Origin: Thermoplasmatota archaeon
GTDB lineage: Archaea; Thermoplasmatota; Penumbrarchaeia; Penumbrarchaeales; Penumbrarchaeaceae
Assembly (NCBI GenBank): GCA_965234725.1
Contig: CBDDUX010000063.1
Coordinates: 15,281-79,280, forward strand
DNA: 64,000 nucleotides
Direction: 5' to 3'
Positions 1-58,124 of the stretch are shown in pieces (position 1 is the first letter of the stretch; each line of letters opens with the position of its first letter). The position numbers and the translations under genes are program-made. The notes beneath the pieces were generated by a model. That model made no database searches. It worked only from the letters and a program-made list of their open reading frames with translations, and was not told the DNA's origin.

Positions 1-2
1 TG

Positions 3-260
3 AAGGACATCAAGAAGGAACTCCTCAAAGCTGAACCGGGCCTTGAAGAGTATGAGATAGATGTTATCTATGATGATATGAAATGGGCTGCCTCAGACCA
101 CTGGGCTTATGTAAATGATGGACATGATGCCATGGGAGGCTGGGGTTCCGGATGCATTGAATACCATACGTACAAGGATGACCTCTCCCACCTGAACGCT
201 GAATCCCTCCAGATCGGTGGAAGGATCCTTGGAAGCTATGCTTTGATGGCAGCTACCTGA
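3..260 (+). CDS. C-terminal fragment of probable M28-family peptidase (5' truncated by window edge)
   Basis: Frame open from position 3; SDH...YHTxxDxxxxL motif typical of M28 C-termini. Confidence 0.6.
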   Translation, partial: KDIKKELLKAEPGLEEYEIDVIYDDMKWAASDHWAYVNDGHDAMGGWGSGCIEYHTYKDDLSHLNAESLQIGGRILGSYALMAAT

Positions 261-296: not shown

Positions 297-1091
297 TTGT
301 TGAACGGGGGTTCTGATTTGAATAAAGATGATGATGGAATATTTAAAAAACTGAGAGTCTTCAATCTCGTCATGGCGGTCCTGCATTTTCTTCAGGGTTT
401 GTTAATGATCGTCATAAGCAACGATTTCACAATAACCGTCACCAGAGGTTTCCTTGATTTCGACCCGATCACGGAGAGGCTCTATCCCGACACCGCTGAT
501 GTGATAGATATCAGGCTAGGGCCCTTGATAGCTTCTTTTCTGTTCCTCTCCTCATTGGCCCACCTGCTCATTGGGACCGGTCTTTTCAAGAGTTATGTCA
601 AGGACCTAAAAAAGGGGATGAACAGATTCCGCTGGTACGAATACTCCCTCAGTGCTTCGTTGATGATCGTTGCTATCGCCATGCTCACAGGCATCTATGA
701 TGCAGGGACCCTGATCCTGATCTTCTTCATGAACATGATGATGATACTTTTCGGACTCAGGATGGAGGTCCACAACCAGGGAAAAAAGAAGCTCGACTGG
801 GACCCGTTCATTTACGGATGCATAGCAGGGATCGTTCCCTGGATCGCCATAGGGATCTATCTGATTGGTGCAGGGGGAGGTGATGGAGGACCTCCAGATT
901 TCGTCTATTACATATACATCTCTCTTGCGGTGTTCTTCAATTGTTTCGCCATCAACATGGTCCTTCAATACAAGAAGGTCTGGAAATGGAGGAACTATCT
1001 GTTCGGAGAAACGATCTATATCATTCTCAGCCTGGTAGCCAAATCCCTTCTTGCATGGCAGGTCTTTGCAGGAACCCTCAGGCCGGGATGA
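297..1091 (+). CDS. heR: Heliorhodopsin (start may be a few codons later)
   Basis: 7 hydrophobic segments; LHFLQG, RWYEYSLSASLM and the retinal-binding LSLVAKSLLAW motif. Confidence 0.93.
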   Translation: MLNGGSDLNKDDDGIFKKLRVFNLVMAVLHFLQGLLMIVISNDFTITVTRGFLDFDPITERLYPDTADVIDIRLGPLIASFLFLSSLAHLLIGTGLFKSYVKDLKKGMNRFRWYEYSLSASLMIVAIAMLTGIYDAGTLILIFFMNMMMILFGLRMEVHNQGKKKLDWDPFIYGCIAGIVPWIAIGIYLIGAGGGDGGPPDFVYYIYISLAVFFNCFAINMVLQYKKVWKWRNYLFGETIYIILSLVAKSLLAWQVFAGTLRPG

Positions 1092-6708: not shown

Positions 6709-9700
6709 ATGCCATATAAGACACAGATTGCATCCTTGGCCCTTGTCATGATGATGACAGCTTTTGGACTTATCCTCCCATCTTCTAATGGTGAGGATAT
6801 AGATTATTTCATGAACGATTCGATGATCACAGAGGACACGGTTGTCCTCAAGGGAGATGGAAGCGAAATATATGACTCTCACATGTTCTTCCAGATCGAG
6901 AGAAATGTACCCATTTCCTCAGCGGGAATGAAGATAAGCTCTCAAAACACCGAAGATGGCCCCTGGATCAAGGAACCATCAATTGATATAGGGGCGGATT
7001 CGAATTTGGATTGGTCCTTCGCCGGAACCGGATACGGTGATTTCGGGAGGAACTATGCATTCTCGGATGATAGTGTACTGAAGACCAATACATATACAGG
7101 TGCTCAGAACCAGATGCTTGGAAGTATCATCTTACCTGCCGAGGCCGATGTGATATCCGGAGAGATGTCAATAAAAGGAAGGTTCGATGCCAAGATCAGC
7201 AACATGAAGACCGTGGCAAACGCTGGTCAGATCAACTATGCACCACAATGGGTTGAAATCGGTGACCTCGATGGGGATGATCTTAATGATGCATTGGTCT
7301 CAACGGGTGCCAACGGTGACCTTTATACTTACATACAAGAAATCAGTGGTCAATACATAAAGACCAAGCTTACTAACCCCTCAACCTACAATGACTATGT
7401 TATTTATGATGTTAACAAAGACGGAGCAAACGATATAGTCTTCTCTACCTCGAACGGCATCTACTGGGTGGCAAATTCCGGATCCGGTTCATTTTCCTCC
7501 ACCTCCTCTCAGATGACCTCATCTTTTACTCCAAACTTCCTGGGACTTGTGGATGTGGATGGTGATGGTGAGGATGAGATCGTCGGAGCCCTTTCATCAT
7601 GGTCCTGGCCAACGACAAAGGTCGTGATATCATACCTGAAAAGGGCATCCGGTTCCACCTTCAACCTATGGCCTTTGTTCAACACTGGAAGCGGTTCAGG
7701 ATCGGTGACACTACTCAATATCAAGTTCGGCGATTGGAACAATGATGATTATATGGATGTGTTCGCAGCTTATTCAGACAGGAACGTCTATGTGTTCGAA
7801 AATCCCGCCTATTCAGGATATTACAGCGATATTTCAAATATCACCTTCAAGTCAAAATGGGCTGCGACAAAGGTCTTTCAATCCGCCTATTCTATTCAAG
7901 GATGGGATGTTGGTGATGTGGATAATGATGGGAATGCGGATATCGCAATTGCTCCAGCCAGTGGTTACAACACGGATATCCATTACTATAACAACAAGGG
8001 AACAGGTACCTGGACCAGATACGATATCGTATCCTATTCCATATCCTACCCCAAGGATGTTACAATAGTCGATCTGAACGGGGATGGCAACCTGGATATC
8101 TTCTTCGCCGCAGGGAACTACTACTACTACAACAACATAGGATGGTGCAAGAATGGCGGGAATCCCAACAAGAGCAACTGGAATTCTTATACCCTGATGT
8201 CCGGCCATGATGATTCTGGTAGTGCAGCATTCACTGGAGATGTTGATTCCGACGGATACATTGACACGGGATATTTCTTCACCTCCAACAGACAGATAAT
8301 CGTCTGGAAGAACTCTAACCCGCACGATGGGTCCAATATCGAAGCTGGATTCATCGAGGACGGCGGTCTTGCCCAGGTGAGTGACCTGGTTAGAGTTGAT
8401 ATGGACCTGGACGGCGATGACGATTTTCTAATAACAGCCTTCAGGAGCGGGACAGTTGGATGGTACGAGAACGATGGGACCCCCTTTGCAGATGATTGGC
8501 CCTTCTACAGGATCAATGGTGTCATAGTTGCAGGAGCAAAGGAGGTGGCTTACGGTGATATCGACAACGATGGAGATCTGGACGTTGCTGTCACCGCTTA
8601 CAGTATGGGAAGGATCATGTGGTTCGAGAACCCCGGCAATCCTAAGAGCACATGGAAATACCACTATGTGGGATCCATGACCTATGCACTCGGCTGTGGA
8701 CTCGGAGATATGGACGAGGATGGCAATCTGGATATAATCGTGTCTGCAGGGTATTACTATGCCGATGGTATCAGGATGTACAGTGCATCGGATCCTTACG
8801 GCAGTTGGTCCTCCTATTCTGTCGCTAGTTCCGTTTCCTACTGTGGAGCTATAAATATAACAGATATGAACAGGGACGGACACCTTGATGTCCTTGTAAC
8901 GGTGAACGGATATTCCGGACAGGCGAATATCTACAGGAACCCCCTTCCGGGAAAGAACCCAAAATCGGGACAATGGCCATCGATCGCAGCTGTCTCAGGC
9001 CTCCAATATCCATATGAGGTTCTACCTGTAGATATAAACGATGATGGTAATCTGGATGTTGTGGTGTCTTCCAATTATGGTGGGATCAAGTGGGGTCAAT
9101 GCCCCTCGAATGCGAACTCCACAGGTGGATGGTCCTCGTACACAATGGACAGTTCAATCAGCTATCCCTGGGGTCTGGATGTAGCTGATGTCGACAATGA
9201 CGGATACGATGATGTCTTTGTAACATGCCATTATTGGTGGGCCACAGGAACCTATTCCTATGCTAGAGGTGTTTATTGGCTTGAGGAGACCGATGATCCA
9301 TATTCCCCATGGATGAAAAGGACCATCGACACCACCATGAGAGAAACATACGGCATATCTGTATGTGATATGGATGAGGACGGTTCCCTTGAGATCTACG
9401 CCCTATCCATGTTCGATGATGATTTCAAATACAACCAGCCTACACTGAACTACCCGTCCAATATCAGGGTGGATCTGGCCTCTGATAACATTGTTGACTT
9501 CCAGACCACAGGCCATCTGAGGGGTGACCTTGAAATTGACATTGGAACACAGATCCAAAACATAATTGATACAAAACCATCATCGGTCAGACAGTTCAAG
9601 GACAGTTATGGCAATCCTATGATGGAGATGGACATAAACCTTTATTCAGCCTCTCTTGGAAGACTGACAGGATACGGGTTCGATATCAGGTATAATCTTA

Positions 9701-11789: not shown

Positions 11790-11842
11790 ATCGGGTGTTG
11801 GACAATCACCAACACCCGATTCTATTTCTTATTTTATTTTTC
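11790..11842 (+). terminator. Hairpin plus T-rich tract terminator
   Basis: 12-bp stem ATCGGGTGTTGG (11790-11801)/CCAACACCCGAT (11809-11820) just after the stop, followed by a T-rich run. Confidence 0.7.
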
Positions 11843-21934: not shown

Positions 21935-21972
21935 TAAAAAATAAAAAAAAAGCCCACCCCGGAGGGTGGGCT
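21935..21972 (-). terminator. Intrinsic-type terminator (9-bp GC stem, UCCG loop, long U tract)
   Basis: Minus strand AGCCCACCC-TCCG-GGGTGGGCT-TTTTTTTTATTTTTT, 30 nt after the stop at 22002. Confidence 0.8.
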
Positions 21973-28382: not shown

Positions 28383-30824
28383 ATGATCGCATCCAACGAA
28401 CGAAGAAGGGCCAAGTATATCGGCAGGAAAGATGAGCTTGACCTTCTGAACCAAATCCTAGACGAGGTCCGATCCGGTAAAGGAAGGCTTGTCCTTGTTG
28501 CTGGTGAGGCTGGGATAGGAAAGACCAGACTCATCCAGGAAATGAAGGAACAACCTAATTTCTCCGGATTCAACTTCCTTATAGGTAGATGTCTTTATTT
28601 CAAGGATACGGACATATATCTTCCTTTCAAGGAGATGTTCACCCAGTATTCGAATATCATGAAGGACATGAATGCAGAATCCCCATTCTCCCCAAGGATG
28701 GGAGACCAGCGTTATGACATGCTGACATCTCCTGATGGAGATTTCTTACCCATGTCACTAATCCCGGCTGAGATAGACCAGCCAGCACCAGAAGAGGATG
28801 AGATGCGGGTGGAGGGGTTGCTTGAGTTCGATAAACTATCCGATTTCATTTTCAAATTTTCAAAGAGAGGACCTCTTTGTCTTTTCATTGACGATCTTCA
28901 TTGGGCCGATCCTCCATCAATAAAATTCCTCCAGTATCTGGCCCAGAATATTCTGGACCAAACTATTCTAATAATCTGTACATACAGACCTGAAGACCTT
29001 TTCTGCGGTGAGGATGCACCTCATCCTCTTGCGGAACCCTTGAAGAGGCTATCAAGGGACAAACTGTATGTTCCGGTAGAGCTCAAACAGCTCTCAAGGG
29101 AAGAAACGGATAAACTACTGCGGAACATACTCGAGATAGAGAAGGTTCCTCCTACTTTCAGTGAACTGATATTCTCAAGGACCTCTGGTAACCCCTTCTT
29201 CGTAGAGGAGGTCCTGTATTCTCTGCTTGAACGGAATATAATCGATCCACTGACCCCTGATTGGCATAAGAACATAGATCCAGATACGATTTCTCTTCCA
29301 ACGACGCTCAGGGATATCATTCTCAGGAGGATGCATTGGCTCCAGGCCAATTCCATCGCCGTCATCAGATTATCCTCGGTCTCATCCGGGACAAGGATCA
29401 CTTTTGAAGTGATCAAGGATGCATTGAAGATGACGGACGAGGAAGTGCTGGAGGCTATTGAGGAGCTTGTTCAGGCAAAATTCCTCAAAGAGGTCAAGGA
29501 GGATGAAAGCTATGAGTTCGAGAACCCTGTTATTCAAGAGGTCATCTACTCGGAACTCAATCACAGCAGAAGGAAGTTCCTCCATACAAAGATGGCAAAT
29601 GTCCTAGAGGCTAGATTCGCCCAGAATCCCTCTCACTGGGGAAATATCGGCATTCATTTCTACAAAGGAAAGGAATACGAAAAAGCCCTCCATTATCTGA
29701 TCAATGCATCCACCTATTTCCAGAAGGTATCACCACACAAAGCCCTGGAATATCTGCATATGGTACTTTTCTGCATTGAGAAGCTCCCTCAATCGGATTC
29801 GGTCAAGGACCAGAACCTGAAGGTACTTCTGGAGATCTCCAACCTATGCCTTAAGATCTGGGATTGGGACCGTTCAAAGGAATTCGCTGAAAAAGCATTG
29901 AACCTTGCTACAGTGATCCGGAGACCAGTTGAAAGGTTCAAGGCCAAGGTCAATATAGGTGAGATCCTCAGGTTCAAGGGAGAATTCGATAAGGCCCTTG
30001 CCATATACCAGGATATCATCTCATCCACAGGTGATGAGGACTCGGAATCATTCGCAAAGGCTTACATGGGGATCGGCTATGTGAAATGGAAGAGGGGAGA
30101 GTTCCCCAGGGCTCTTGAGATGTTCTCCAAATCCCTGCAATATGCGAAATTGGAAAACAATCTCAACACCATTGGTACCCTATACATAGACATTGGGAAC
30201 GTCTTCAATCATAGAGGTGACATGAAAAAAGCCATCGATTACTACACCAGGGGCATCAGACATCTGGAATCATACGGCAATATCATAGAAGCATCCAGAG
30301 GATACAGTAACATGGGTGGAGTTCACCTTCAACTTGGGGAGATGGAAGAGGCCGAGAAGAACCTGGATATGGCCATCAAGAAGGCAAAGGAGCAGGGTAG
30401 GCAGGAACCATGGTGGCCCATGATACTCAAGATCAAGCTGAGAGCCCTGCAGAACAGATTCAAGGAAGCTGATGATGCATTCGAGAGGGTATCCGAGGAC
30501 CTGAAGGGAAAGGACGATCAGGTCGGTCTTGCATCTTCTTTGATGTATGTCGGTCTATCAAAGACAAGGGAAGGTAAGTATGAAGAGGGAGAGACATTCC
30601 TTGTCAGGGCAATATCCATTTTTGAATCTCTCACAGTTCCGTTCGATCTTGCCCGAACCAAGGATCTATTAGGTGACCTCTATATGAAGAACTCGAAGTT
30701 CGATGAGGCAAAGACCTTTTACAGTGAATCCTACCAGGCATTCAAGGAGATAGGGGCAAAAAGATATGCAGAAGAGGTCCGTGGAAAGCTCCTTGAATTA
30801 AGGGGTGGAGACGGATATATTTAA
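28383..30824 (+). CDS. STAND-type AAA ATPase with C-terminal TPR repeats
   Basis: IGR..E, Walker A GEAGIGKT, Walker B FIDDLHWAD, GNPFFVEE, TPR array. Confidence 0.88.
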   Translation: MIASNERRRAKYIGRKDELDLLNQILDEVRSGKGRLVLVAGEAGIGKTRLIQEMKEQPNFSGFNFLIGRCLYFKDTDIYLPFKEMFTQYSNIMKDMNAESPFSPRMGDQRYDMLTSPDGDFLPMSLIPAEIDQPAPEEDEMRVEGLLEFDKLSDFIFKFSKRGPLCLFIDDLHWADPPSIKFLQYLAQNILDQTILIICTYRPEDLFCGEDAPHPLAEPLKRLSRDKLYVPVELKQLSREETDKLLRNILEIEKVPPTFSELIFSRTSGNPFFVEEVLYSLLERNIIDPLTPDWHKNIDPDTISLPTTLRDIILRRMHWLQANSIAVIRLSSVSSGTRITFEVIKDALKMTDEEVLEAIEELVQAKFLKEVKEDESYEFENPVIQEVIYSELNHSRRKFLHTKMANVLEARFAQNPSHWGNIGIHFYKGKEYEKALHYLINASTYFQKVSPHKALEYLHMVLFCIEKLPQSDSVKDQNLKVLLEISNLCLKIWDWDRSKEFAEKALNLATVIRRPVERFKAKVNIGEILRFKGEFDKALAIYQDIISSTGDEDSESFAKAYMGIGYVKWKRGEFPRALEMFSKSLQYAKLENNLNTIGTLYIDIGNVFNHRGDMKKAIDYYTRGIRHLESYGNIIEASRGYSNMGGVHLQLGEMEEAEKNLDMAIKKAKEQGRQEPWWPMILKIKLRALQNRFKEADDAFERVSEDLKGKDDQVGLASSLMYVGLSKTREGKYEEGETFLVRAISIFESLTVPFDLARTKDLLGDLYMKNSKFDEAKTFYSESYQAFKEIGAKRYAEEVRGKLLELRGGDGYI

Positions 30825-30906
30825 TAAATTCTAACAACAAGTTCAAATCCGGCTCCACCCAGAATACTATCATTAAATGAGATGTAGTTACATCGATAGT
30901 ATAATA

Positions 30907-30922
30907 GGCGCCGGGAGCCGGA
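30907..30922 (-). repeat. Direct copy of tRNA-Ser 3' end (16 bp)
   Basis: GGCGCCGGGAGCCGGA identical to 31020-31035. Confidence 0.9.
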
Positions 30923-31018
30923 CATTCGTAAAAAAGTAAACCCAAGTGATTCTGATCACTTTTTTACTTGCCAGTGATTAATTATTGATTACACGGCTCC
31001 CTTTGATTAGAAAATAAA

Positions 31019-31103
31019 TGGCGCCGGGAGCCGGATTTGAACCGACAAGGGTTGCCCCAGCGGTTTTCGAGACCGCCGCCGTACCAGGTTGAGCCATCCC
31101 GGC
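31019..31103 (-). tRNA. tRNA-Ser(CGA), CCA encoded
   Basis: GCCGGGA/TCCCGGC acceptor stem, anticodon arm GCGGT-CTCGAAA-ACCGC, long variable arm, GGTTCAAATCC T arm; 85 nt. Confidence 0.96.
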
Positions 31104-31522
31104 GTTTAGATTTGCGAATGCACCAGAAACGGCTCAACCTGGTTGACCCGAAGGGTCATTATACCAGGTCGGAGTGTCGAAGGCACTCCCATCCGTGAAC
31201 GGAATTCCCGAAGGGAATTGGGTTCTGAGCTATCCCGGCGTTTAGATTTGCGAATGCACCAGAAACGGCTCAACCTGGTTGACCCGAAGGGTCATTATAC
31301 CAGGTCGGAGTGTCGAAGGCACTCCCATCCGTGAACGGAATTCCCGAAGGGAATTGGGTTCTGAGCTATCCCGGCGTTTAGAATTGCGAATGCACCAGAA
31401 ATAGCTCAACCTGGTTGACCCGTAGGGTCATTTTACCAGGTCGGAGTGTCGAAGACACTCCCATCCGTGAACGGAATTCCCGAAGGGAATTGGGTTCTGA
31501 GCCATCCCGGCGTTTAGAATTG
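31090..31522. repeat. Tandem array of 136-bp hairpin-rich units, each containing the tRNA-Ser 5' 14 nt
   Basis: Units start at 31090, 31226, 31362 plus a 25-bp partial at 31498; 1 difference between units 1 and 2, 6 between units 2 and 3. Confidence 0.97.
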
Positions 31523-31563
31523 AATGAAATTTGCTACGGCGGGTAAGGGGATGAAGTTAAAGG

Positions 31564-31580
31564 GTTTAAAAAGGGTTTTG
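31564..31580 (-). promoter_or_regulatory. Candidate TATA/BRE for the tRNA-Ser locus, upstream of the whole array
   Basis: Minus strand CAAAACCCTTTTTAAAC, about 55 nt upstream of the outermost tRNA 5' fragment; no TATA-like run seen inside the units. Confidence 0.45.
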
Positions 31581-31709
31581 GTCAGGTTCGGCCCTACCTC
31601 CATTAATATTCTGGACCTCCCGAGGATAAAACAATACTATGCTCAATATATTTCTGTCCTTAGTAAACAATATTAACATGGATCAAGTTCCCATCACTGG
31701 GTGTGAACA

Positions 31710-31922
31710 ATGAAAGGTGGATACGTCATCATGGGGATATTCCTCATGGCAACCTCATTTTAATTTCCACTTGGATATCTGATACTTGATCTACTATCAT
31801 TGGGTATTCTTACCGTATTGACACTAGGATTGGATTGGGTTTGCTGCTGTGGATTGAATTCACTTCTCTTCATTATCGGCATGGTTCTCTTTATCGTCGG
31901 TCTTGTAAAAGGTAAGGATTGA
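31710..31922 (+). pseudogene. Small membrane protein interrupted by an in-frame TAA
   Basis: ATG 31710, TAA at 31761-31763, hydrophobic frame continues to TGA 31920-31922. Confidence 0.55.
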
Positions 31923-31950
31923 GGATCAAAATACAGACGTTCTCTTCACT

Positions 31951-32286
31951 TTATGCATACATCATTTCATCGTCATGTTCATCCTTCATCAGGATCTCTT
32001 TCTTCTTCTTACGATCCCTATCCTTGGATTTGTGCTTTACAGCCTTCCTCTGGGTCTCGTCACGACCAAGGAACGTGAAATCGAACCTGTTCATCCTGAT
32101 GAACATCTTGTCAGGGAGCCTTTCTAACTTTATCCATCCCCTTGCCTCCATGCTTTTCAATGTCCTTGCCACATCCCTCGGAGACAAACCAGTCCTTTCG
32201 ATCACTTCTCTGTCATCGATAGGATATCTCTCAAGGATCACCCTCAGGATCTTTGCCTCTATGGACTTGGAATTCACCTGGACCAT
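31951..32286 (-). CDS. Small winged-helix DNA-binding protein
   Basis: GAGGGTGA RBS; EVIERTGLSPRDVARTLKSMEARGWI HTH; basic/acidic tail. Confidence 0.75.
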   Translation of the reverse strand: MVQVNSKSIEAKILRVILERYPIDDREVIERTGLSPRDVARTLKSMEARGWIKLERLPDKMFIRMNRFDFTFLGRDETQRKAVKHKSKDRDRKKKKEILMKDEHDDEMMYA

Positions 32287-32290
32287 ACTG

Positions 32291-33478
32291 TCACCCTCCC
32301 TCAATTGAGAAAGGACCTTTGATAACATCAAGGGGAGCATTGGTCTTGATAATGGTGGGTGAGAACCTGCTTCTTGACCATTTGTGTCCAAACCTCTCGA
32401 TGAATTTTGTTATGGTCTCTATTGATGGGGGAGAGGTCTTGTAATAGCTGGCAGTCTCGTTGATGTCGAAACCTCCAGGAGGAAGGGTCTCTTCGGTGAT
32501 AGCATACCTGAGAATCCTATCTATTGACCTCTTGCTTGCTATCCAATCACCCAGACGATCCTCAAGAACTGACCTGCATTCTTCACAGAATTCTATGTCT
32601 GCAAGGGAGCCGGTCCAGACAGGTCCCATCAATTCCCCTCCGATGATATTCCTGAGAAGCTCATGTGGACTTGCAATAACCTTCGGAGGACCTGGAGGAT
32701 CGTTAATGAGCCATCCTACCGAATCAAGGCTCAGATCAGCCTTTTTCGCACCTCTATCAACTCGAAGATATCCTCTTAAGAAATGATCTGATGAATAAAA
32801 CAGCAGAGGATGGATGGAGATCTCGAAGGATGCCGCCAAACGGGCAATATACCCGAGAAGGACCCGGCAGCCCATTTCCTGCATGAAATCGGTCCTTCCG
32901 ACTTCCACTCCATATCTTCTCCTGGCCACCCGAGACACAGATCCGGTCAGGGCGGCAGTATCAGTAGCAGTTACAGCAAGTATGCCACCCTTTCTAAGGG
33001 AAAGGAGTGAATTCTGCAAGAATGGGACCGGACTGCCATATGGGTCCACATCGATGTAATGGAATCTGCGAGTCCCGCAAAATCCATTCAGGTCTCCCCA
33101 ATGGAAAGCAACTCCCACACCGTTCTTTGTAGCTAGGTTCCTTGCACTTTCTATCGAATCACCTTTCAGATCCACTCCGGTTATTGAAAGGTCAAGATCT
33201 TTGACACCGAGCTCCATAGCGAACCTTACGGCCCTTATTCCAGAGCCAGTGAGGCCGTCCAGGATATCGATGATACCACTATCCCCGAATCTTCCGGTGT
33301 CAATGAGGGTCTGCATGACAACAACAGAGAGATCTCGGTTTTGGACCATTGCAGGATTGTAGAATACTGGCGCTTTCGAACCAGGACCTTTGCTTCCTCC
33401 TGTAGGTGGAGCAATCAGTTCCACCAAACCCTCTTTCCGAGAATCTGCAGTACCGTTCGATCCGGATACATCTGCCAT
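32291..33478 (-). CDS. trm1: tRNA (guanine-26-N2)-dimethyltransferase
   Basis: VFYNPAMVQNRD, GSGIRAVR, DVDPYGSP, TATD. Confidence 0.92.
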   Translation of the reverse strand: MADVSGSNGTADSRKEGLVELIAPPTGGSKGPGSKAPVFYNPAMVQNRDLSVVVMQTLIDTGRFGDSGIIDILDGLTGSGIRAVRFAMELGVKDLDLSITGVDLKGDSIESARNLATKNGVGVAFHWGDLNGFCGTRRFHYIDVDPYGSPVPFLQNSLLSLRKGGILAVTATDTAALTGSVSRVARRRYGVEVGRTDFMQEMGCRVLLGYIARLAASFEISIHPLLFYSSDHFLRGYLRVDRGAKKADLSLDSVGWLINDPPGPPKVIASPHELLRNIIGGELMGPVWTGSLADIEFCEECRSVLEDRLGDWIASKRSIDRILRYAITEETLPPGGFDINETASYYKTSPPSIETITKFIERFGHKWSRSRFSPTIIKTNAPLDVIKGPFSIEGG

Positions 33479-41608: not shown

Positions 41609-41640
41609 GCGGGGAGTTACCCCTCCCCGCCATTTTTCTC
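41609..41640 (+). terminator. Hairpin terminator
   Basis: GCGGGGAG/CTCCCCGC stem followed by CATTTTTCTC, 18 nt after the stop. Confidence 0.65.
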
Positions 41641-52597: not shown

Positions 52598-52632
52598 TAT
52601 TAACATCAGGATATGGGGATCCCAACACAAAA

Positions 52633-52905
52633 CACCATTTCATGAAATGAGTTGAAATTTTTAAAAATGGTGCAGGCGCCGGGACATGTGAATAATCTAA
52701 GATTATTCACGTGTGTGGAAAATGTTCCATTTTCCAAACATTTGATTCCGCAAAATCAAAGATTTTGCTCAGGTTGAGCATTATCTATCGGCGCTTTAGT
52801 AAAACCAATGCTCAACCACCCAAGGGTTCAAATCCCTCACGTCGATTCCAGAGCACCATTTCATGAAATGAGTTGAAATTTTTAAAAATGGTGCAGGCGC
52901 CGGGA
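52633..52905. repeat. 52-bp perfect direct repeat (tRNA-Gly 3' 17 nt plus 35 nt trailer) enclosing a hairpin-rich insert
   Basis: 52633-52684 identical to 52854-52905; period 221 bp. Confidence 0.95.
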
Positions 52906-52964
52906 TTTGAACCCGGGTTAAAGGCTTGGAAGGCCCTTGTCATAGCCAACTAGACTACGCCTGC
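52889..52964 (-). tRNA. tRNA-Gly(TCC), CCA encoded
   Basis: GCAGGCG/CGCCTGC acceptor stem, loop CTTCCAA, GGGTTCAAATCCC T arm; 76 nt. Confidence 0.96.
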
Positions 52965-55916: not shown

Positions 55917-56408
55917 ATGAAGATTATCCTCGATGCGTCAGCATTCCTTTCCGGCAGGATCACATCACTACCAGGTTCACCTGGGGATGTATTCGTTACA
56001 CCGGAAGTGGTGAGGGAGATCGCACACGGTAGACCTAAAAGAACAATCGATAACCTCCTCTTATCAGGTCTGCAGATGAAGAGCCCAAATGATCTTAAAG
56101 ATGCAAAGAAGGCCGCAGAAAGGACAGGTGATTTGGGACTTCTATCACCTGCAGATCTTTCCGTCATTGCCCTTGCTATGGAAATAAATGGATCTGTTGT
56201 CATGACAGATGATTTCAGGATTCAGAATGTCCTTCTATCACTGGATATGAAATTCATCACTGCCGGTGAGATCGGAGATCGGACCATCAAAGAGGTCTGG
56301 GATTGGACCTATAGATGCAGAGGATGTAAAAAAATCTTCCAAGATCCTCCAGGAATCGATTGTCCCATATGTGGTTCGGAGATCAGGAAGGTCAGGAAAA
56401 TGTCCTAA
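55917..56408 (+). CDS. nob1: Nob1-family PIN endonuclease with Zn ribbon
   Basis: ILDASAF, TGD...LS.AD.SVIALA, TDDF.IQNV, CRGC...CPICG. Confidence 0.9.
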   Translation: MKIILDASAFLSGRITSLPGSPGDVFVTPEVVREIAHGRPKRTIDNLLLSGLQMKSPNDLKDAKKAAERTGDLGLLSPADLSVIALAMEINGSVVMTDDFRIQNVLLSLDMKFITAGEIGDRTIKEVWDWTYRCRGCKKIFQDPPGIDCPICGSEIRKVRKMS

Positions 56409-57799
56409 GTCAATGGGATCAGATCAAGATTGGGGAATCCGTGGTCCTCACTTGGAAGGATCGCAAAGATCGTTGTCTCCGGTTTCACACCAAAGAAGCA
56501 AGGTATCGAATTGATCCTTATCATTCTGAGATATACATCTGACATGTTCCTTATCCCTTGACCGATCTTGAGCCCGGGTTTTGCTATTCCTATGCCAAGT
56601 GTCTTCGTAACCTTGGTCTTTGAAACCCCGGTCAATAGATGTCTCAATGTCAGGGATTCTCCGATCAGATATTCCATTGTGTCAAGTCCGACGAAATCAA
56701 GATAGGGCTTCTTCTCCCTTCCACTAAGTTTCTGATAGACTTCCATACCCTTCTGCTGTATACCATCCTTACGTGATGCACCCATGGGTATGATGTATTC
56801 CTTTGCTGATGATGAGGCAAAATAATCAAGGAAATATAGTTTCTCTGAAAGCCTATCCAGATCCACATAGTTCATCAGGTCTCCCCTGATCGATTCTGGA
56901 TGTTCACCCGCCGGAGTGACCATTAGAACCCCTTGATCGTGTTGAAGGAAATTCAAAAGGACGGGTCTGAGAAGAAGCAGGTATTCAGAAGAAAGGATGT
57001 TATCATCCACATCAAGGATATTATACGAACCTCTTTTGAACCCACCAGCGAGAATTCGATCCAGATCATCTGTTCCCGTTGAGAAATAGGTCTCAGTATC
57101 ATCGATAGGTATCCATTTTCCTTTCGGTGTGGTGTCAACGGACCAGGGTTTGAAGGATCTGAAACGTCCATTATGGAGTGTGAAAAGGTAATTCGAGTTC
57201 CTGACCTCGACTCCCCTCATCTTCTCGAATGTCAGTGCCCTGAACCTCCTCCCCTCCTTTTCATCGAAATATAATCTCACAACCCCTCCCGCCAGATGGT
57301 CCAGGTAAGTTGTCCCTTCCTTTTCTTGAACGATGATCGCAGAGACATTTGATCCCTGAACGAGGGATACAACTTCTTTCATCTTCCTCTCTGGGTTCTC
57401 ATATTGCTCTGTGATCGCATTAATGGGATCGAAGAGCATGTAACCAATACCATCGGCGTTCTTCTGGTTCAAGAAATCGAATTCCCTTTTGAACCAGTTA
57501 GGATCCGCCATCTTGGTGTTACCATGAAAAGCAAGAAGATTGAATTTCTCAGGACCATCGACAAGCCATTCGTATTCGGATCTCAGCTGGTCCGAATCCA
57601 TCCTGGGAAATATAGTGATACCTATCTTCTTCTGGCAGAGGGCCTTCATACATTCTAGCGAGAACATTGTCTTGCCTGATCCTGGAGGACCTTTAACGAG
57701 AAGGATCTCTCCAACGTTCTCTCTGAAAAAACTAATAACCTCTGCGGGAATATGGTCCACCGGGTCCGGGCTCATTCCTTTAATATCCTGACCTGGCAT
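56405..57799 (-). CDS. KaiC/GvpD-like RecA-superfamily ATPase (start 57799 or 57775)
   Basis: GPPGSGKT, EKMRG; second domain STG..DLD.ILAGG without a Walker A. Confidence 0.8.
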   Translation of the reverse strand: MPGQDIKGMSPDPVDHIPAEVISFFRENVGEILLVKGPPGSGKTMFSLECMKALCQKKIGITIFPRMDSDQLRSEYEWLVDGPEKFNLLAFHGNTKMADPNWFKREFDFLNQKNADGIGYMLFDPINAITEQYENPERKMKEVVSLVQGSNVSAIIVQEKEGTTYLDHLAGGVVRLYFDEKEGRRFRALTFEKMRGVEVRNSNYLFTLHNGRFRSFKPWSVDTTPKGKWIPIDDTETYFSTGTDDLDRILAGGFKRGSYNILDVDDNILSSEYLLLLRPVLLNFLQHDQGVLMVTPAGEHPESIRGDLMNYVDLDRLSEKLYFLDYFASSSAKEYIIPMGASRKDGIQQKGMEVYQKLSGREKKPYLDFVGLDTMEYLIGESLTLRHLLTGVSKTKVTKTLGIGIAKPGLKIGQGIRNMSDVYLRMIRINSIPCFFGVKPETTIFAILPSEDHGFPNLDLIPLT

Positions 57800-57839
57800 A
57801 ATAAAGATGTCGCTGTTTTTAGGGTCGTGGGGAAAACAG

Positions 57840-58124
57840 ATGTCTGAAAAAGAGAAACCAGAGAAGATCGAAGTGAAATACAAACCGGGATCTTCGGATA
57901 AGACAAGGACCGTGGCTTTGAAGCTCCAGGAGATCTTCAACGGTCCCGTATTCGAAAAAATGGTCAGAAATGCGGTGGAGGAGATGATACTCGAGGGAAA
58001 GCTGACATATGATATTGTGACAGACACCATTGATGTCCCGGAAGATATTGTGAGGAACTGGGCTGCTGATCAGGAAAAAAGGATATGGTCCAAGAAAAAG
58101 GGTTCATCCCCCTCCAAAAAGTGA
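57840..58124 (+). CDS. Hypothetical small protein
   Basis: Fills the gap between opposed genes; charged 94-aa ORF. Confidence 0.55.
   Translation: MSEKEKPEKIEVKYKPGSSDKTRTVALKLQEIFNGPVFEKMVRNAVEEMILEGKLTYDIVTDTIDVPEDIVRNWAADQEKRIWSKKKGSSPSKK

What the first reader, a model, noticed from the sequence alone, without database searches (positions are those of the whole stretch)
31090..31522. 136-bp x 3.2 tandem array fused to the 5' end of tRNA-Ser(CGA)
Seen: each unit comprises tRNA nt 1-14, the leader and about 110 nt of nested hairpins. These are ACCTGGT[TGACCC-GAA-GGGTCA]TTAT-ACCAGGT (31137-31169), GGAGTGTC-GAA-GGCACTCC (31171-31189), TCCG-TGAA-CGGA and AATTCCC-GAA-GGGAATT (31203-31219). There are no spacers, so it is not CRISPR. 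Established: tRNA-linked repeats such as the E. coli tyrT units duplicate the 3' end. A 5'-end array breaking in the D arm is unusual. Inference: repeated insertion at, or rolling amplification of, one site. Unit 3 (distal) is the most diverged, consistent with polarised growth next to the tRNA.
Basis: partly seen in the sequence, partly recalled or inferred. Interest (0 to 1): 0.85.

Follow-up and report, generated by a model that had tools for sequence, protein, structure and literature searches.

The report
Tandem leader repeats upstream of tRNA-Ser
An archaeal serine tRNA gene is preceded by three head-to-tail copies of a hairpin-rich 136-base block that each repeat the first 14 bases of the tRNA, most likely a recombination scar that was then amplified locally rather than a new kind of genetic system.

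Summary
Confirmed: 31090-31522 holds 3.2 head-to-tail copies of a 136-nt unit (97% matches). It abuts tRNA-Ser(CGA) at 31019-31103 on the minus strand. Each unit carries leader sequence, tRNA nt 1-14, an inverted copy of tRNA nt 9-21 and several perfect-stem hairpins.

It is not CRISPR, matches no Rfam family and shows no coding signal. No other copy was found in the window, in two related loci, in plasmid or phage sets, or in a 23-mer scan of species genomes.

Two related Thermoplasmatota MAG contigs carry the same tRNA in the same neighbourhood. One has no 5' repeat. The other has one 30-nt leader+tRNA(1-22) duplication 162 nt upstream, around a different hairpin-rich filler. A conserved promoter-like block lies upstream of the distal fragment. 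Similar end duplications flank the 3' sides of tRNA-Ser and tRNA-Gly.

Best reading: a recombination scar at a rearrangement-prone tRNA gene, amplified by unequal crossing-over and transcribed as a long structured pre-tRNA leader. Wobble-only divergence hints at RNA-level constraint on a leader:tRNA helix. Copy number could not be checked because the array contains a 151-nt exact repeat. New variant of a known kind; moderate interest.

The parts
31019..31103 (-). Intact tRNA-Ser(CGA). Its first 14 nt (31090-31103) are also the proximal end of the array.
   Evidence: ARAGORN; Rfam RF00005 at 47.7 bits, full model 1-71. The sequence is identical in L002 and differs at 1 nt in L001.
31090..31225 (-). 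Unit U1: 122-nt body (31104-31225) plus the real tRNA nt 1-14.
31226..31361 (-). Unit U2. Body identical to U1. Its tRNA fragment carries G9->A.
   Evidence: 1 difference from U1.
31362..31497 (-). Unit U3, the most diverged. It differs from U1 at 7 positions and from U2 at 6. Of the 7, 2 fall in hairpin loop regions, 1 restores a pair in hairpin H3, 3 lie in helix H5 (including one compensatory C:G to U:A pair) and 1 lies in the H5 loop (leader).
31498..31522 (-). Distal partial unit: 11 nt of leader plus tRNA nt 1-14, with G9 as in the real tRNA. Weaker similarity to the unit leader continues about 8 nt further with a 2-nt indel.
   Evidence: printed boundary comparison.
31083..31143 (-). 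Helix H5: an inverted copy of tRNA nt -1..21 (31121-31143), a 16-nt leader loop, and tRNA nt 1-21. Predicted at 22 bp and -35.5 kcal/mol on the sense strand. Shorter versions occur in U2 and U3.
   Evidence: I3. One search shows the four G.U pairs of H5.
31137..31219 (-). Hairpin block of U1, repeated in U2 and U3. It comprises ACCTGGT...ACCAGGT with a nested GACCC/GGGTC hairpin, GGAGTG.../...CACTCC, CCG/CGG, and AATTCCC/GGGAATT. On the tRNA-sense strand two loops read C(UUCG)G.
31569..31584 (-). Conserved 16-nt block TGACCAAAACCCTTTT followed by TAAA. It is promoter-like (BRE/TATA-like, my inference) and lies 53 nt upstream of the distal tRNA fragment.
   Evidence: It aligns with blocks upstream of the distal fragment in L001 and of the single tRNA in L002. 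It occurs only once in the window.
30901..30922 (-). Direct copy of the tRNA 3' end (nt 69-84 plus a few trailer nt). It lies 113 nt downstream of its counterpart in the tRNA, start to start, with a 91-nt filler (30923-31013) between the two copies.
   Evidence: D3. The same layout is present in L002.
30841..30856 (+). Inverted copy of tRNA nt 62-77 (T arm and start of the acceptor 3' strand).
   Evidence: I1. Also present in L001 and L002.

Best explanation
The array is a locally amplified, non-coding minisatellite in the 5' leader of a functional tRNA-Ser(CGA) gene. It is not a mobile or defence system.

Step 1 (inferred): a rearrangement at the 5' end of the gene left a second, promoter-proximal copy of leader + tRNA nt 1-14. 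It also left an inverted copy of tRNA nt -1..21 and about 80 nt of perfect-stem hairpin filler. The result was R-X-R, with the intact tRNA at the proximal R. This is the 5' counterpart of the att-like end duplications seen at four other tRNA ends in this lineage. I cannot tell whether a tyrosine recombinase (a scar of an integrated element whose cargo is gone) or replication template switching made the seed. I rate the two about equal.

Step 2 (best supported): unequal crossing-over or slippage between the R copies (25 nt or more) expanded R-X-R to R-(X-R)3.

Step 3 (inferred): transcription starts at the conserved promoter-like block distal to the array. The whole array is then a roughly 450-nt, highly structured pre-tRNA leader that RNase P removes. 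Within it, the inverted copy can pair with the 5' part of the tRNA or of each fragment. The pattern of substitutions suggests this helix is maintained on the tRNA-sense strand.
For: Anatomy:
- The anatomy is R-(X-R)n, with a distal partial R followed by unrelated sequence.
- The distal flank aligns with the promoter/leader of the single-copy orthologue in L002 and of L001. That includes a 16-nt block found only once in the window.
- The intact tRNA is the proximal member.

Amplification:
- U1 and U2 bodies are identical. U2 is a recombinant of a U1-type body with a U3-type A9 fragment.

Not a dispersed family:
- 0 other copies of the unit in the window.
- 0 in L001 and L002.
- 0 hits in plasmids and phages.
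- 0 loci for the 23-mer in genome contigs.

Recurrence in the lineage:
- L001 has a perfect 30-nt duplication (8 nt of leader + tRNA 1-22) 162 nt upstream, around a different filler.
- tRNA-Ser has direct 3'-end copies and inverted T-arm copies in all 3 loci.
- tRNA-Gly has a 57-nt direct repeat at 96% identity (52 nt exact, as I read it), made of the tRNA 3' end plus trailer. It encloses about 169 nt of hairpin-rich filler and an inverted T-arm copy.
- The whole tRNA-Ser module is inverted in L002.

RNA-level hint:
- The inverted copy differs from a perfect complement of tRNA -1..9 by 4 substitutions, all giving G.U on the sense strand, plus one inserted U. The chance probability is 0.001-0.07, depending on transition bias.
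- U3 has one compensatory pair.
- Overall there are 5 G.U pairs on the sense strand and 1 on the other strand.
Against: - No integrase, phage or plasmid gene appears among the 41 ORFs scanned across the window. Open frames through the repeats give no Pfam or PHROGs signal. The recombinase version of step 1 therefore rests on analogy.
- Neither seed mechanism explains where the hairpin filler came from.
- L001's filler shares only a 12-nt hairpin motif with the window unit (7 of 1000 shuffles score as high). Common ancestry and independent events cannot be separated.
- The promoter is inferred from conservation only. Each unit also has a weak TATAAT-like element 54 nt upstream of its tRNA fragment.
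- In silico, the leader:tRNA hairpin is 10-19 kcal/mol better than leader plus cloverleaf, and the acceptor stem of the true 5' end has probability 0.0. That would hinder simple RNase P maturation and suggests either a function or a cost.
- The covariation count over 3 units has no power (325 of 500 shuffles score as high).
Confidence: 0.55

Rival explanations
1. Tandem accretion of a miniature, attP-only integrative element. Each 136-nt unit would be a separate site-specific integration into the 5' part of the tRNA, catalysed in trans by a tyrosine integrase encoded elsewhere. Each integration regenerates the target, so units stack up.
For: - R-(X-R)n is what serial integration at a regenerated att site gives.
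- Repeat boundaries are sharp and enclose unique DNA at five tRNA ends in this lineage.
- Direct plus inverted att-like copies occur, and the module is inverted in L002.
- pTN3-like integrases use the tRNA 5' half as attB and carry out integration, excision and inversion (PMC8371274 and PMC5495485, passages read).
Against: - No integrase in the 64-kb window.
- No other copy of the unit anywhere searched.
- A 136-bp circle is shorter than the DNA persistence length (my knowledge).
- The unit's leader is homologous to the native leader for about 20 nt. That fits duplication of host sequence better than a foreign attP.
- The U2 hybrid is explained more simply by unequal crossing-over.
Confidence: 0.13
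2. A functional structured leader RNA. The repeats would be selected because the inverted copy sequesters the tRNA 5' end, and the upstream fragments act as decoys or alternative acceptor strands. This would make tRNA-Ser(CGA) maturation conditional. Alternatively, each unit yields a stable small RNA.
For: - Very stable folds: z = -5.8 for one unit and -8.0 for the whole leader.
- C(UUCG)G/C(UACG)G loops on the sense strand.
- Wobble-only divergence and one compensatory pair in H5.
- The predicted minimum-energy fold uses the upstream fragment as the acceptor strand while the true 5' end is locked in H5.
Against: - The structure is not conserved. L002 has no such leader, and L001's filler has no strong inverted copy; its fold is within 1.2 kcal/mol of leader plus cloverleaf.
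- No Rfam family matches.
- Three near-identical units give no statistical covariation.
- Palindrome arms can be kept complementary by DNA-level conversion.
- G.T pairs are also tolerated in single-stranded DNA hairpins.
Confidence: 0.17
3. Assembly artefact in copy number. The locus really holds one or two units, and the assembler traversed a repeat loop an extra time.
For: - The array contains a 151-nt exact repeat. That is longer than typical short reads and longer than the k = 127/141 in the contig names of the related MAG assemblies.
- U1 and U2 differ at one base only.
Against: - At least two distinct unit types exist. U3 differs from U1 at 7 sites, and those differences are structurally coherent.
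- The distal partial copy has its own combination of variants.
- An independent assembly, L001, also shows a 5' duplication of this tRNA.
- The window is a 64-kb contiguous stretch through the array.
Confidence: 0.1
4. A disrupted-tRNA arrangement. The distal fragment would be exon 1, and the following unit or units an intron removed at a bulge-helix-bulge motif; or the fragments would be 5' pieces for trans-splicing.
For: The predicted minimum-energy fold pairs an upstream fragment with the tRNA 3' acceptor strand. Disrupted tRNA genes are known in Archaea (PMC3218864, abstract seen).
Against: A contiguous, full-scoring tRNA gene sits at the proximal end. No bulge-helix-bulge arrangement appears at the junctions in the predicted folds. 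L002 has the same tRNA with a plain leader.
Confidence: 0.02

Closest known systems
attL/attR direct repeats left by elements integrated in archaeal tRNA genes, especially pTN3-like integrases whose attB is the 5' half of a tRNA gene (PMC8371274 and PMC5495485, passages read; PMC9897764, section 12 read)
   Same: A partial tRNA copy in direct orientation next to a reconstituted intact tRNA. The 5' part is duplicated. The original promoter stays with the partial copy. Inverted copies and inversions occur at the same loci.
   Different: Only 111-132 nt lie between the repeats, against 9-23 kb of element DNA in the cited cases. There is no integrase and no cargo. The repeat is 25-34 nt and reaches into the leader, whereas the 41 bp shared by attP and attB in pTN3 lies inside the tRNA. 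The unit is amplified in tandem.
E. coli tyrT-distal 178-bp tandem repeats carrying the 3' end of tRNA-Tyr (recalled from memory; my search returned no paper on it)
   Same: About three tandem copies of a unit of 100-200 nt, each containing a terminal piece of the adjacent tRNA.
   Different: There the repeats lie at the 3' end, downstream of the tRNA, in a bacterium. Here they lie at the 5' end, upstream, in an archaeon, with an added inverted tRNA copy and hairpin block.
Prokaryotic intergenic minisatellites/VNTRs such as mycobacterial MIRUs (recalled)
   Same: Non-coding tandem units of tens to hundreds of nt in an intergenic region, with copy number set by unequal recombination or slippage.
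   Different: MIRU-type units are dispersed families. This unit was found only at one locus and is built partly from the neighbouring gene.
CRISPR arrays
   Same: Regular spacing of a short repeat of about 25 nt, in an R-(X-R)n layout.
   Different: The 'spacers' are the same 111-nt sequence each time. The repeat is a tRNA/leader fragment. No Cas domains appear in the 41 ORFs scanned. No CRISPR-DR family was hit in the array.
Cis-mobilizable elements and tandem accretion at att sites in bacteria (concept recalled; one search gave only a listing of reviews)
   Same: Integrase-less DNA bounded by att sites that can stack in tandem at one tRNA or tmRNA target.
   Different: Those elements are kilobases long and were shown to be mobilised. 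Here the units are 136 nt and nothing shows mobility.

Membership tests
CRISPR array | Repeats separated by unique, variable spacers | tested here: not met
   The inter-repeat bodies are identical (U1 = U2) or 95% identical (U3).
CRISPR array | Known repeat family or cas genes nearby | tested here: not met
   No CRISPR-DR hit in 30000-32500 at E up to 10. No Cas domain in the 41 ORFs scanned across the window.
Integrated element bounded by tRNA-derived att repeats (pTN3-like, 5' half) | Direct repeat containing the tRNA 5' part, with an intact tRNA reconstituted at one end | tested here: met
   The 25-nt R at 31498-31522 recurs in each unit, and the intact tRNA is at 31019-31103. L001 has a 30-nt perfect repeat.
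Integrated element bounded by tRNA-derived att repeats (pTN3-like, 5' half) | Element DNA with an integrase gene (whole or split) between the repeats | tested here: not met
   Only 111 nt lie between repeats. Open frames through the repeats give no Pfam hit below E = 0.03 and no integrase in PHROGs. No integrase in the window.
Dispersed repeat / MITE family | Multiple copies at unrelated sites | tested here: not met
   blastn of the unit against the window found only the array. None in L001 or L002. 0 loci for a 23-mer in genome contigs. 0 hits in plasmids and phages.
Described RNA family (Rfam 15) | Covariance-model match | tested here: not met
   Within 30000-32500 only the tRNA passes. Nothing overlaps the unit bodies at E up to 10.
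tyrT-type tRNA-linked tandem repeat | Tandem unit that includes a terminal segment of the adjacent tRNA | tested here: met
   Each unit ends with tRNA nt 1-14.
tyrT-type tRNA-linked tandem repeat | Duplicated segment is the tRNA 3' end, with repeats downstream of the gene | tested here: not met
   Here the duplicated segment is the 5' end and the repeats lie upstream. The definition of the tyrT case is recalled, not read.
Intron-containing or split tRNA | tRNA body interrupted, with a bulge-helix-bulge at the junctions | tested here: not met
   The tRNA is contiguous and scores over the full model. No such motif appears at fragment/body junctions in the predicted folds. That part rests on prediction only.

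The most novel reading that the evidence does not exclude
In this Thermoplasmatota lineage a single process repeatedly installs 90-170-nt, perfect-hairpin-rich inserts at both ends of tRNA genes. Each insert is bounded by a direct copy of the tRNA end plus flank and is often accompanied by an inverted copy. That would point to a class of miniature, integrase-less att-bounded elements, or a recombinase footprint, that can stack in tandem and flip tRNA modules. At tRNA-Ser(CGA) the insert has additionally been co-opted as an RNA switch, in which leader, decoy fragment and true 5' end compete for pairing.
Probability: 0.15. Interest if true: 0.7.

Novelty: new variant of a known kind. Interest (0 to 1): 0.4.

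Why it matters
Partial tRNA copies are the standard footprints used to find integrated elements and to clean up tRNA gene sets. This locus shows footprints with almost no element between them. They occur at the less usual 5' end and are amplified into an array. Annotation pipelines would either miss this or call it a CRISPR-like or pseudo-tRNA feature.

The same pattern holds at both tRNA genes in the window and at the two related loci (three of these four loci are orthologous tRNA-Ser genes). If it is general, it marks tRNA genes of this uncultured lineage as hot spots of small-scale rearrangement: duplication, inverted duplication and module inversion.

If the leader:tRNA helix is really selected, it would be an example of a pre-tRNA whose own leader competes with cloverleaf folding. 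That can be tested with RNase P assays.

Tried and rejected
- Rfam at E up to 10 on 30000-32500, on L001 and L002, and on the tRNA-Gly region. Only tRNAs pass; the remaining hits are sub-threshold noise.
- blastn 'distant' of two units against plasmids and phages: no match.
- Exact 23-mer from the invariant part of the unit against genome contigs: 0 loci. The later tRNA scan shows that the source genome is not in that collection. This speaks only for other species' representatives and for one 23-mer.
- Coding remnant of an integrase. Seven stop-free frames through the repeats (window and L001) were run against Pfam and PHROGs; nothing credible came back.
- Homology of the window unit to L001's filler: only a 12-nt exact match, CCTTCGGGTCAA (7 of 1000 shuffles as good; MAFFT alignment). 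Too weak to decide between common descent and independent events.
- Cross-homology among all fillers (Ser 5', Ser 3', Gly 3'): none beyond tRNA-derived pieces. They are not one repeat family.
- Covariation statistics on the three units: no power.
- RNAalifold on the downstream two-hairpin element of L001 and L002. MAFFT misaligned the hairpins, so the output is uninformative.
- CRISPR, intron/split tRNA and dispersed-MITE readings were rejected for the reasons given in Membership tests.
- Literature. Searches found no description of a 5'-end tRNA-linked tandem array in archaea. The library lacks most older subscription papers, including the tyrT work.

Full report
**Observation**

Tandem Repeats Finder reports 31090-31522 as 3.2 copies of a 136-nt unit with 97% matches and no indels. 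The repeat finder places three copies in register. ARAGORN and Rfam call an intact tRNA-Ser(CGA) at 31019-31103 on the minus strand.

Read on the tRNA-sense strand, the array is upstream of the gene. Each unit ends with leader sequence followed by tRNA nt 1-14, and the proximal 14 nt are the start of the real tRNA. U1 and U2 differ at one base: G9 to A in the tRNA fragment. U3 differs from U1 at 7 positions. A distal 25-nt partial unit (31498-31522) has G9 like the real tRNA and the leader variant of U3. One unit folds with z = -5.8 on the sense strand and -4.5 on the other.

- Each unit contains an inverted copy of tRNA nt 9-21, 13 nt perfect in U1 and U2 and 12 nt in U3. With wobble pairs it extends to nt -1.
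- Together with the following tRNA fragment it forms a helix, H5. For the real tRNA this helix is 22 bp and -35.5 kcal/mol, the same energy as the whole cloverleaf.
- Downstream of the tRNA there is a direct copy of its 3' end (30901-30922) after a 91-nt filler, and an inverted copy of nt 62-77 (30841-30856).
- In shuffled versions of this intergenic region, tRNA matches of 9 nt or more average 0.4 per region.

**What it is not**

- Not CRISPR: the 'spacers' are the same sequence, and no Cas domains occur among the 41 ORFs scanned.
- Not a known RNA family: nothing in Rfam matches the unit at E up to 10.
- Not coding: the period is not a multiple of three, and stop-free frames give nothing in Pfam or PHROGs.
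- Not a dispersed repeat as far as I could look. There are no further copies in the window, in the two related loci, or in plasmids or phages. A 23-mer from the invariant part hit 0 loci in one genome per species. The source genome itself is not in that collection, because the later tRNA scan did not return it.

**Relatives**

A scan with tRNA nt 1-22 found two MAG contigs: L001 (Thermoplasmatota archaeon) and L002 (Thermoplasmatales archaeon). Both share the neighbourhood of ribonucleotide reductase, a STAND/TPR ATPase, the tRNA, a winged-helix gene and Trm1. Protein identity to the window is 49-80%.

- L002 has a plain leader and no 5' duplication.
- L001 has a perfect 30-nt duplication (8 nt of leader + tRNA nt 1-22) 162 nt upstream of the tRNA. 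It encloses a filler that is also hairpin-rich but shares only a 12-nt hairpin motif with the window unit.
- In all three loci a conserved 16-nt block, followed by A/T-rich sequence, lies upstream of the distal fragment or, in L002, of the single tRNA. In the window it is unique (31569-31584).

I read this block as the promoter. That is an inference from conservation and its BRE/TATA-like look, not a test. It means the distal fragment sits at the ancestral 5' end of the gene, and everything between it and the intact tRNA is inserted or duplicated material.

**A lineage-wide pattern**

- The 3' side of tRNA-Ser carries direct and inverted end fragments in all three loci.
- The window's only other tRNA, tRNA-Gly(TCC) at 52889-52964, is followed by a 57-nt direct repeat at 96% identity. 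I read 52 nt of it as exact. It consists of tRNA nt 60-76 plus trailer and recurs 221 nt downstream. It encloses about 169 nt with four perfect hairpins and an inverted T-arm copy. The fold z-score is -6.6.
- The fillers are unrelated to each other.
- The whole tRNA-Ser module is inverted in L002 relative to its flanks, and the inverted segment is bounded by a 12-nt inverted repeat.
- Perfect hairpins are enriched in the window (51 against 18.75 in shuffles) and cluster at the two tRNA flanks.

**Mechanism**

The layout R-(X-R)n with a distal R argues against a simple tandem duplication of X-R. It argues for an R-X-R seed that was later amplified.

Amplification by unequal crossing-over within R is supported by two facts. 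The U1 and U2 bodies are identical, and U2 combines a U1-type body with the A9 fragment of U3.

The origin of the seed is open.
- For a recombinase scar: the boundaries are sharp, the enclosed DNA is unique, direct and inverted copies and an inversion occur, and integrases that use the 5' half of a tRNA gene are documented (PMC8371274, PMC5495485; passages read).
- Against it: there is no integrase and no cargo, and the unit's leader is homologous to the native leader over about 20 nt. That looks like duplicated host sequence.
- For template switching: it would explain the direct-inverted-direct copies and the clean junction between the inverted copy and the native leader.
- Against it: it does not explain the filler.

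**Possible RNA-level role**

The inverted copy differs from the perfect complement of tRNA -1..9 by four substitutions. All of them give G.U on the sense strand and would be C.A on the other strand. There is also one inserted U. By simulation this has probability 0.001-0.07, depending on transition bias. U3 carries a compensatory C:G to U:A change, while U2 has the mismatched intermediate.

In silico, the leader:tRNA hairpin beats leader plus cloverleaf by 10-19 kcal/mol, and an upstream fragment takes over the acceptor pairing. These results are suggestive only. With three near-identical units the covariation test has no power (325 of 500 shuffles as high). DNA-level conversion between palindrome arms is an alternative explanation. 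The feature is absent in L002 and weak in L001.

**Caveats**

- Copy number cannot be verified. The array contains a 151-nt exact repeat.
- Only two related loci were available.
- The tyrT comparison, the CIME concept and MIRU are recalled, not read.

**Verdict**

The array is a real, non-coding repeat that is most likely a locally amplified rearrangement or integration scar in a pre-tRNA leader. It is a new variant of known tRNA-linked partial duplications and tandem repeats. The recurrence at several tRNA ends, and the hint of a selected leader:tRNA helix, keep a more interesting reading alive at low probability.

Noticed in passing
window 52628-52905 (tRNA-Gly(TCC) at 52889-52964, minus strand): A 57-nt direct repeat at 96% identity; I read 52 nt as exact. 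It consists of tRNA-Gly nt 60-76 plus trailer and recurs 221 nt downstream. It encloses about 169 nt with four perfect hairpins and an inverted T-arm copy (52824-52836). Fold z = -6.6. The layout matches the tRNA-Ser flanks.
   Followed up: partly
L002 7876-8415 compared with window 30825-31600 and L001 3462-3958: The whole tRNA-Ser module (promoter block, tRNA, 3' fragments) is inverted in L002 relative to the conserved flanking genes. The inverted segment is bounded by a 12-nt inverted repeat (7905-7916 and 8404-8415) that includes the last codons of the winged-helix gene.
   Followed up: partly
L002 8195-8322; L001 3490-3612; truncated remnant at window 30826-30865: Downstream of tRNA-Ser lies a segment of about 120 nt bounded by inverted and direct copies of tRNA nt 62/65-77. 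It holds two hairpins whose stems differ between L001 and L002 yet stay complementary, by eye. The automatic alignment misaligned them. There is no Rfam hit.
   Followed up: partly
window 31600-31950: About 350 nt between the winged-helix gene stop and the tRNA promoter block have no counterpart in L001 (62 nt there) or L002. The segment contains a 40-aa hydrophobic ORF (31800-31922, + strand).
   Followed up: no
window, whole: Perfect hairpins (stem of 7 or more, loop 3-8): 51 observed against a mean of 18.75 in shuffles (maximum 27). Some follow gene ends, for example 11790-11820, 21951-21972 and 41609-41630, and look like terminators.
   Followed up: no
window 297-1091 and 56405-58030: A heliorhodopsin gene (Pfam E = 2e-102) and a GvpD-like gas-vesicle regulator ATPase. 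These suggest a light-exposed aquatic Thermoplasmatota host.
   Followed up: no
window 31159-31164 in U1 (and the matching position in U2 and U3): Each unit has a TATAAT-like element (TAAAAT in U3) 54 nt upstream of its tRNA fragment. This is about the same spacing as the TTTTTAAA of the conserved block from the distal fragment. It could be a weak internal promoter or coincidence.
   Followed up: no
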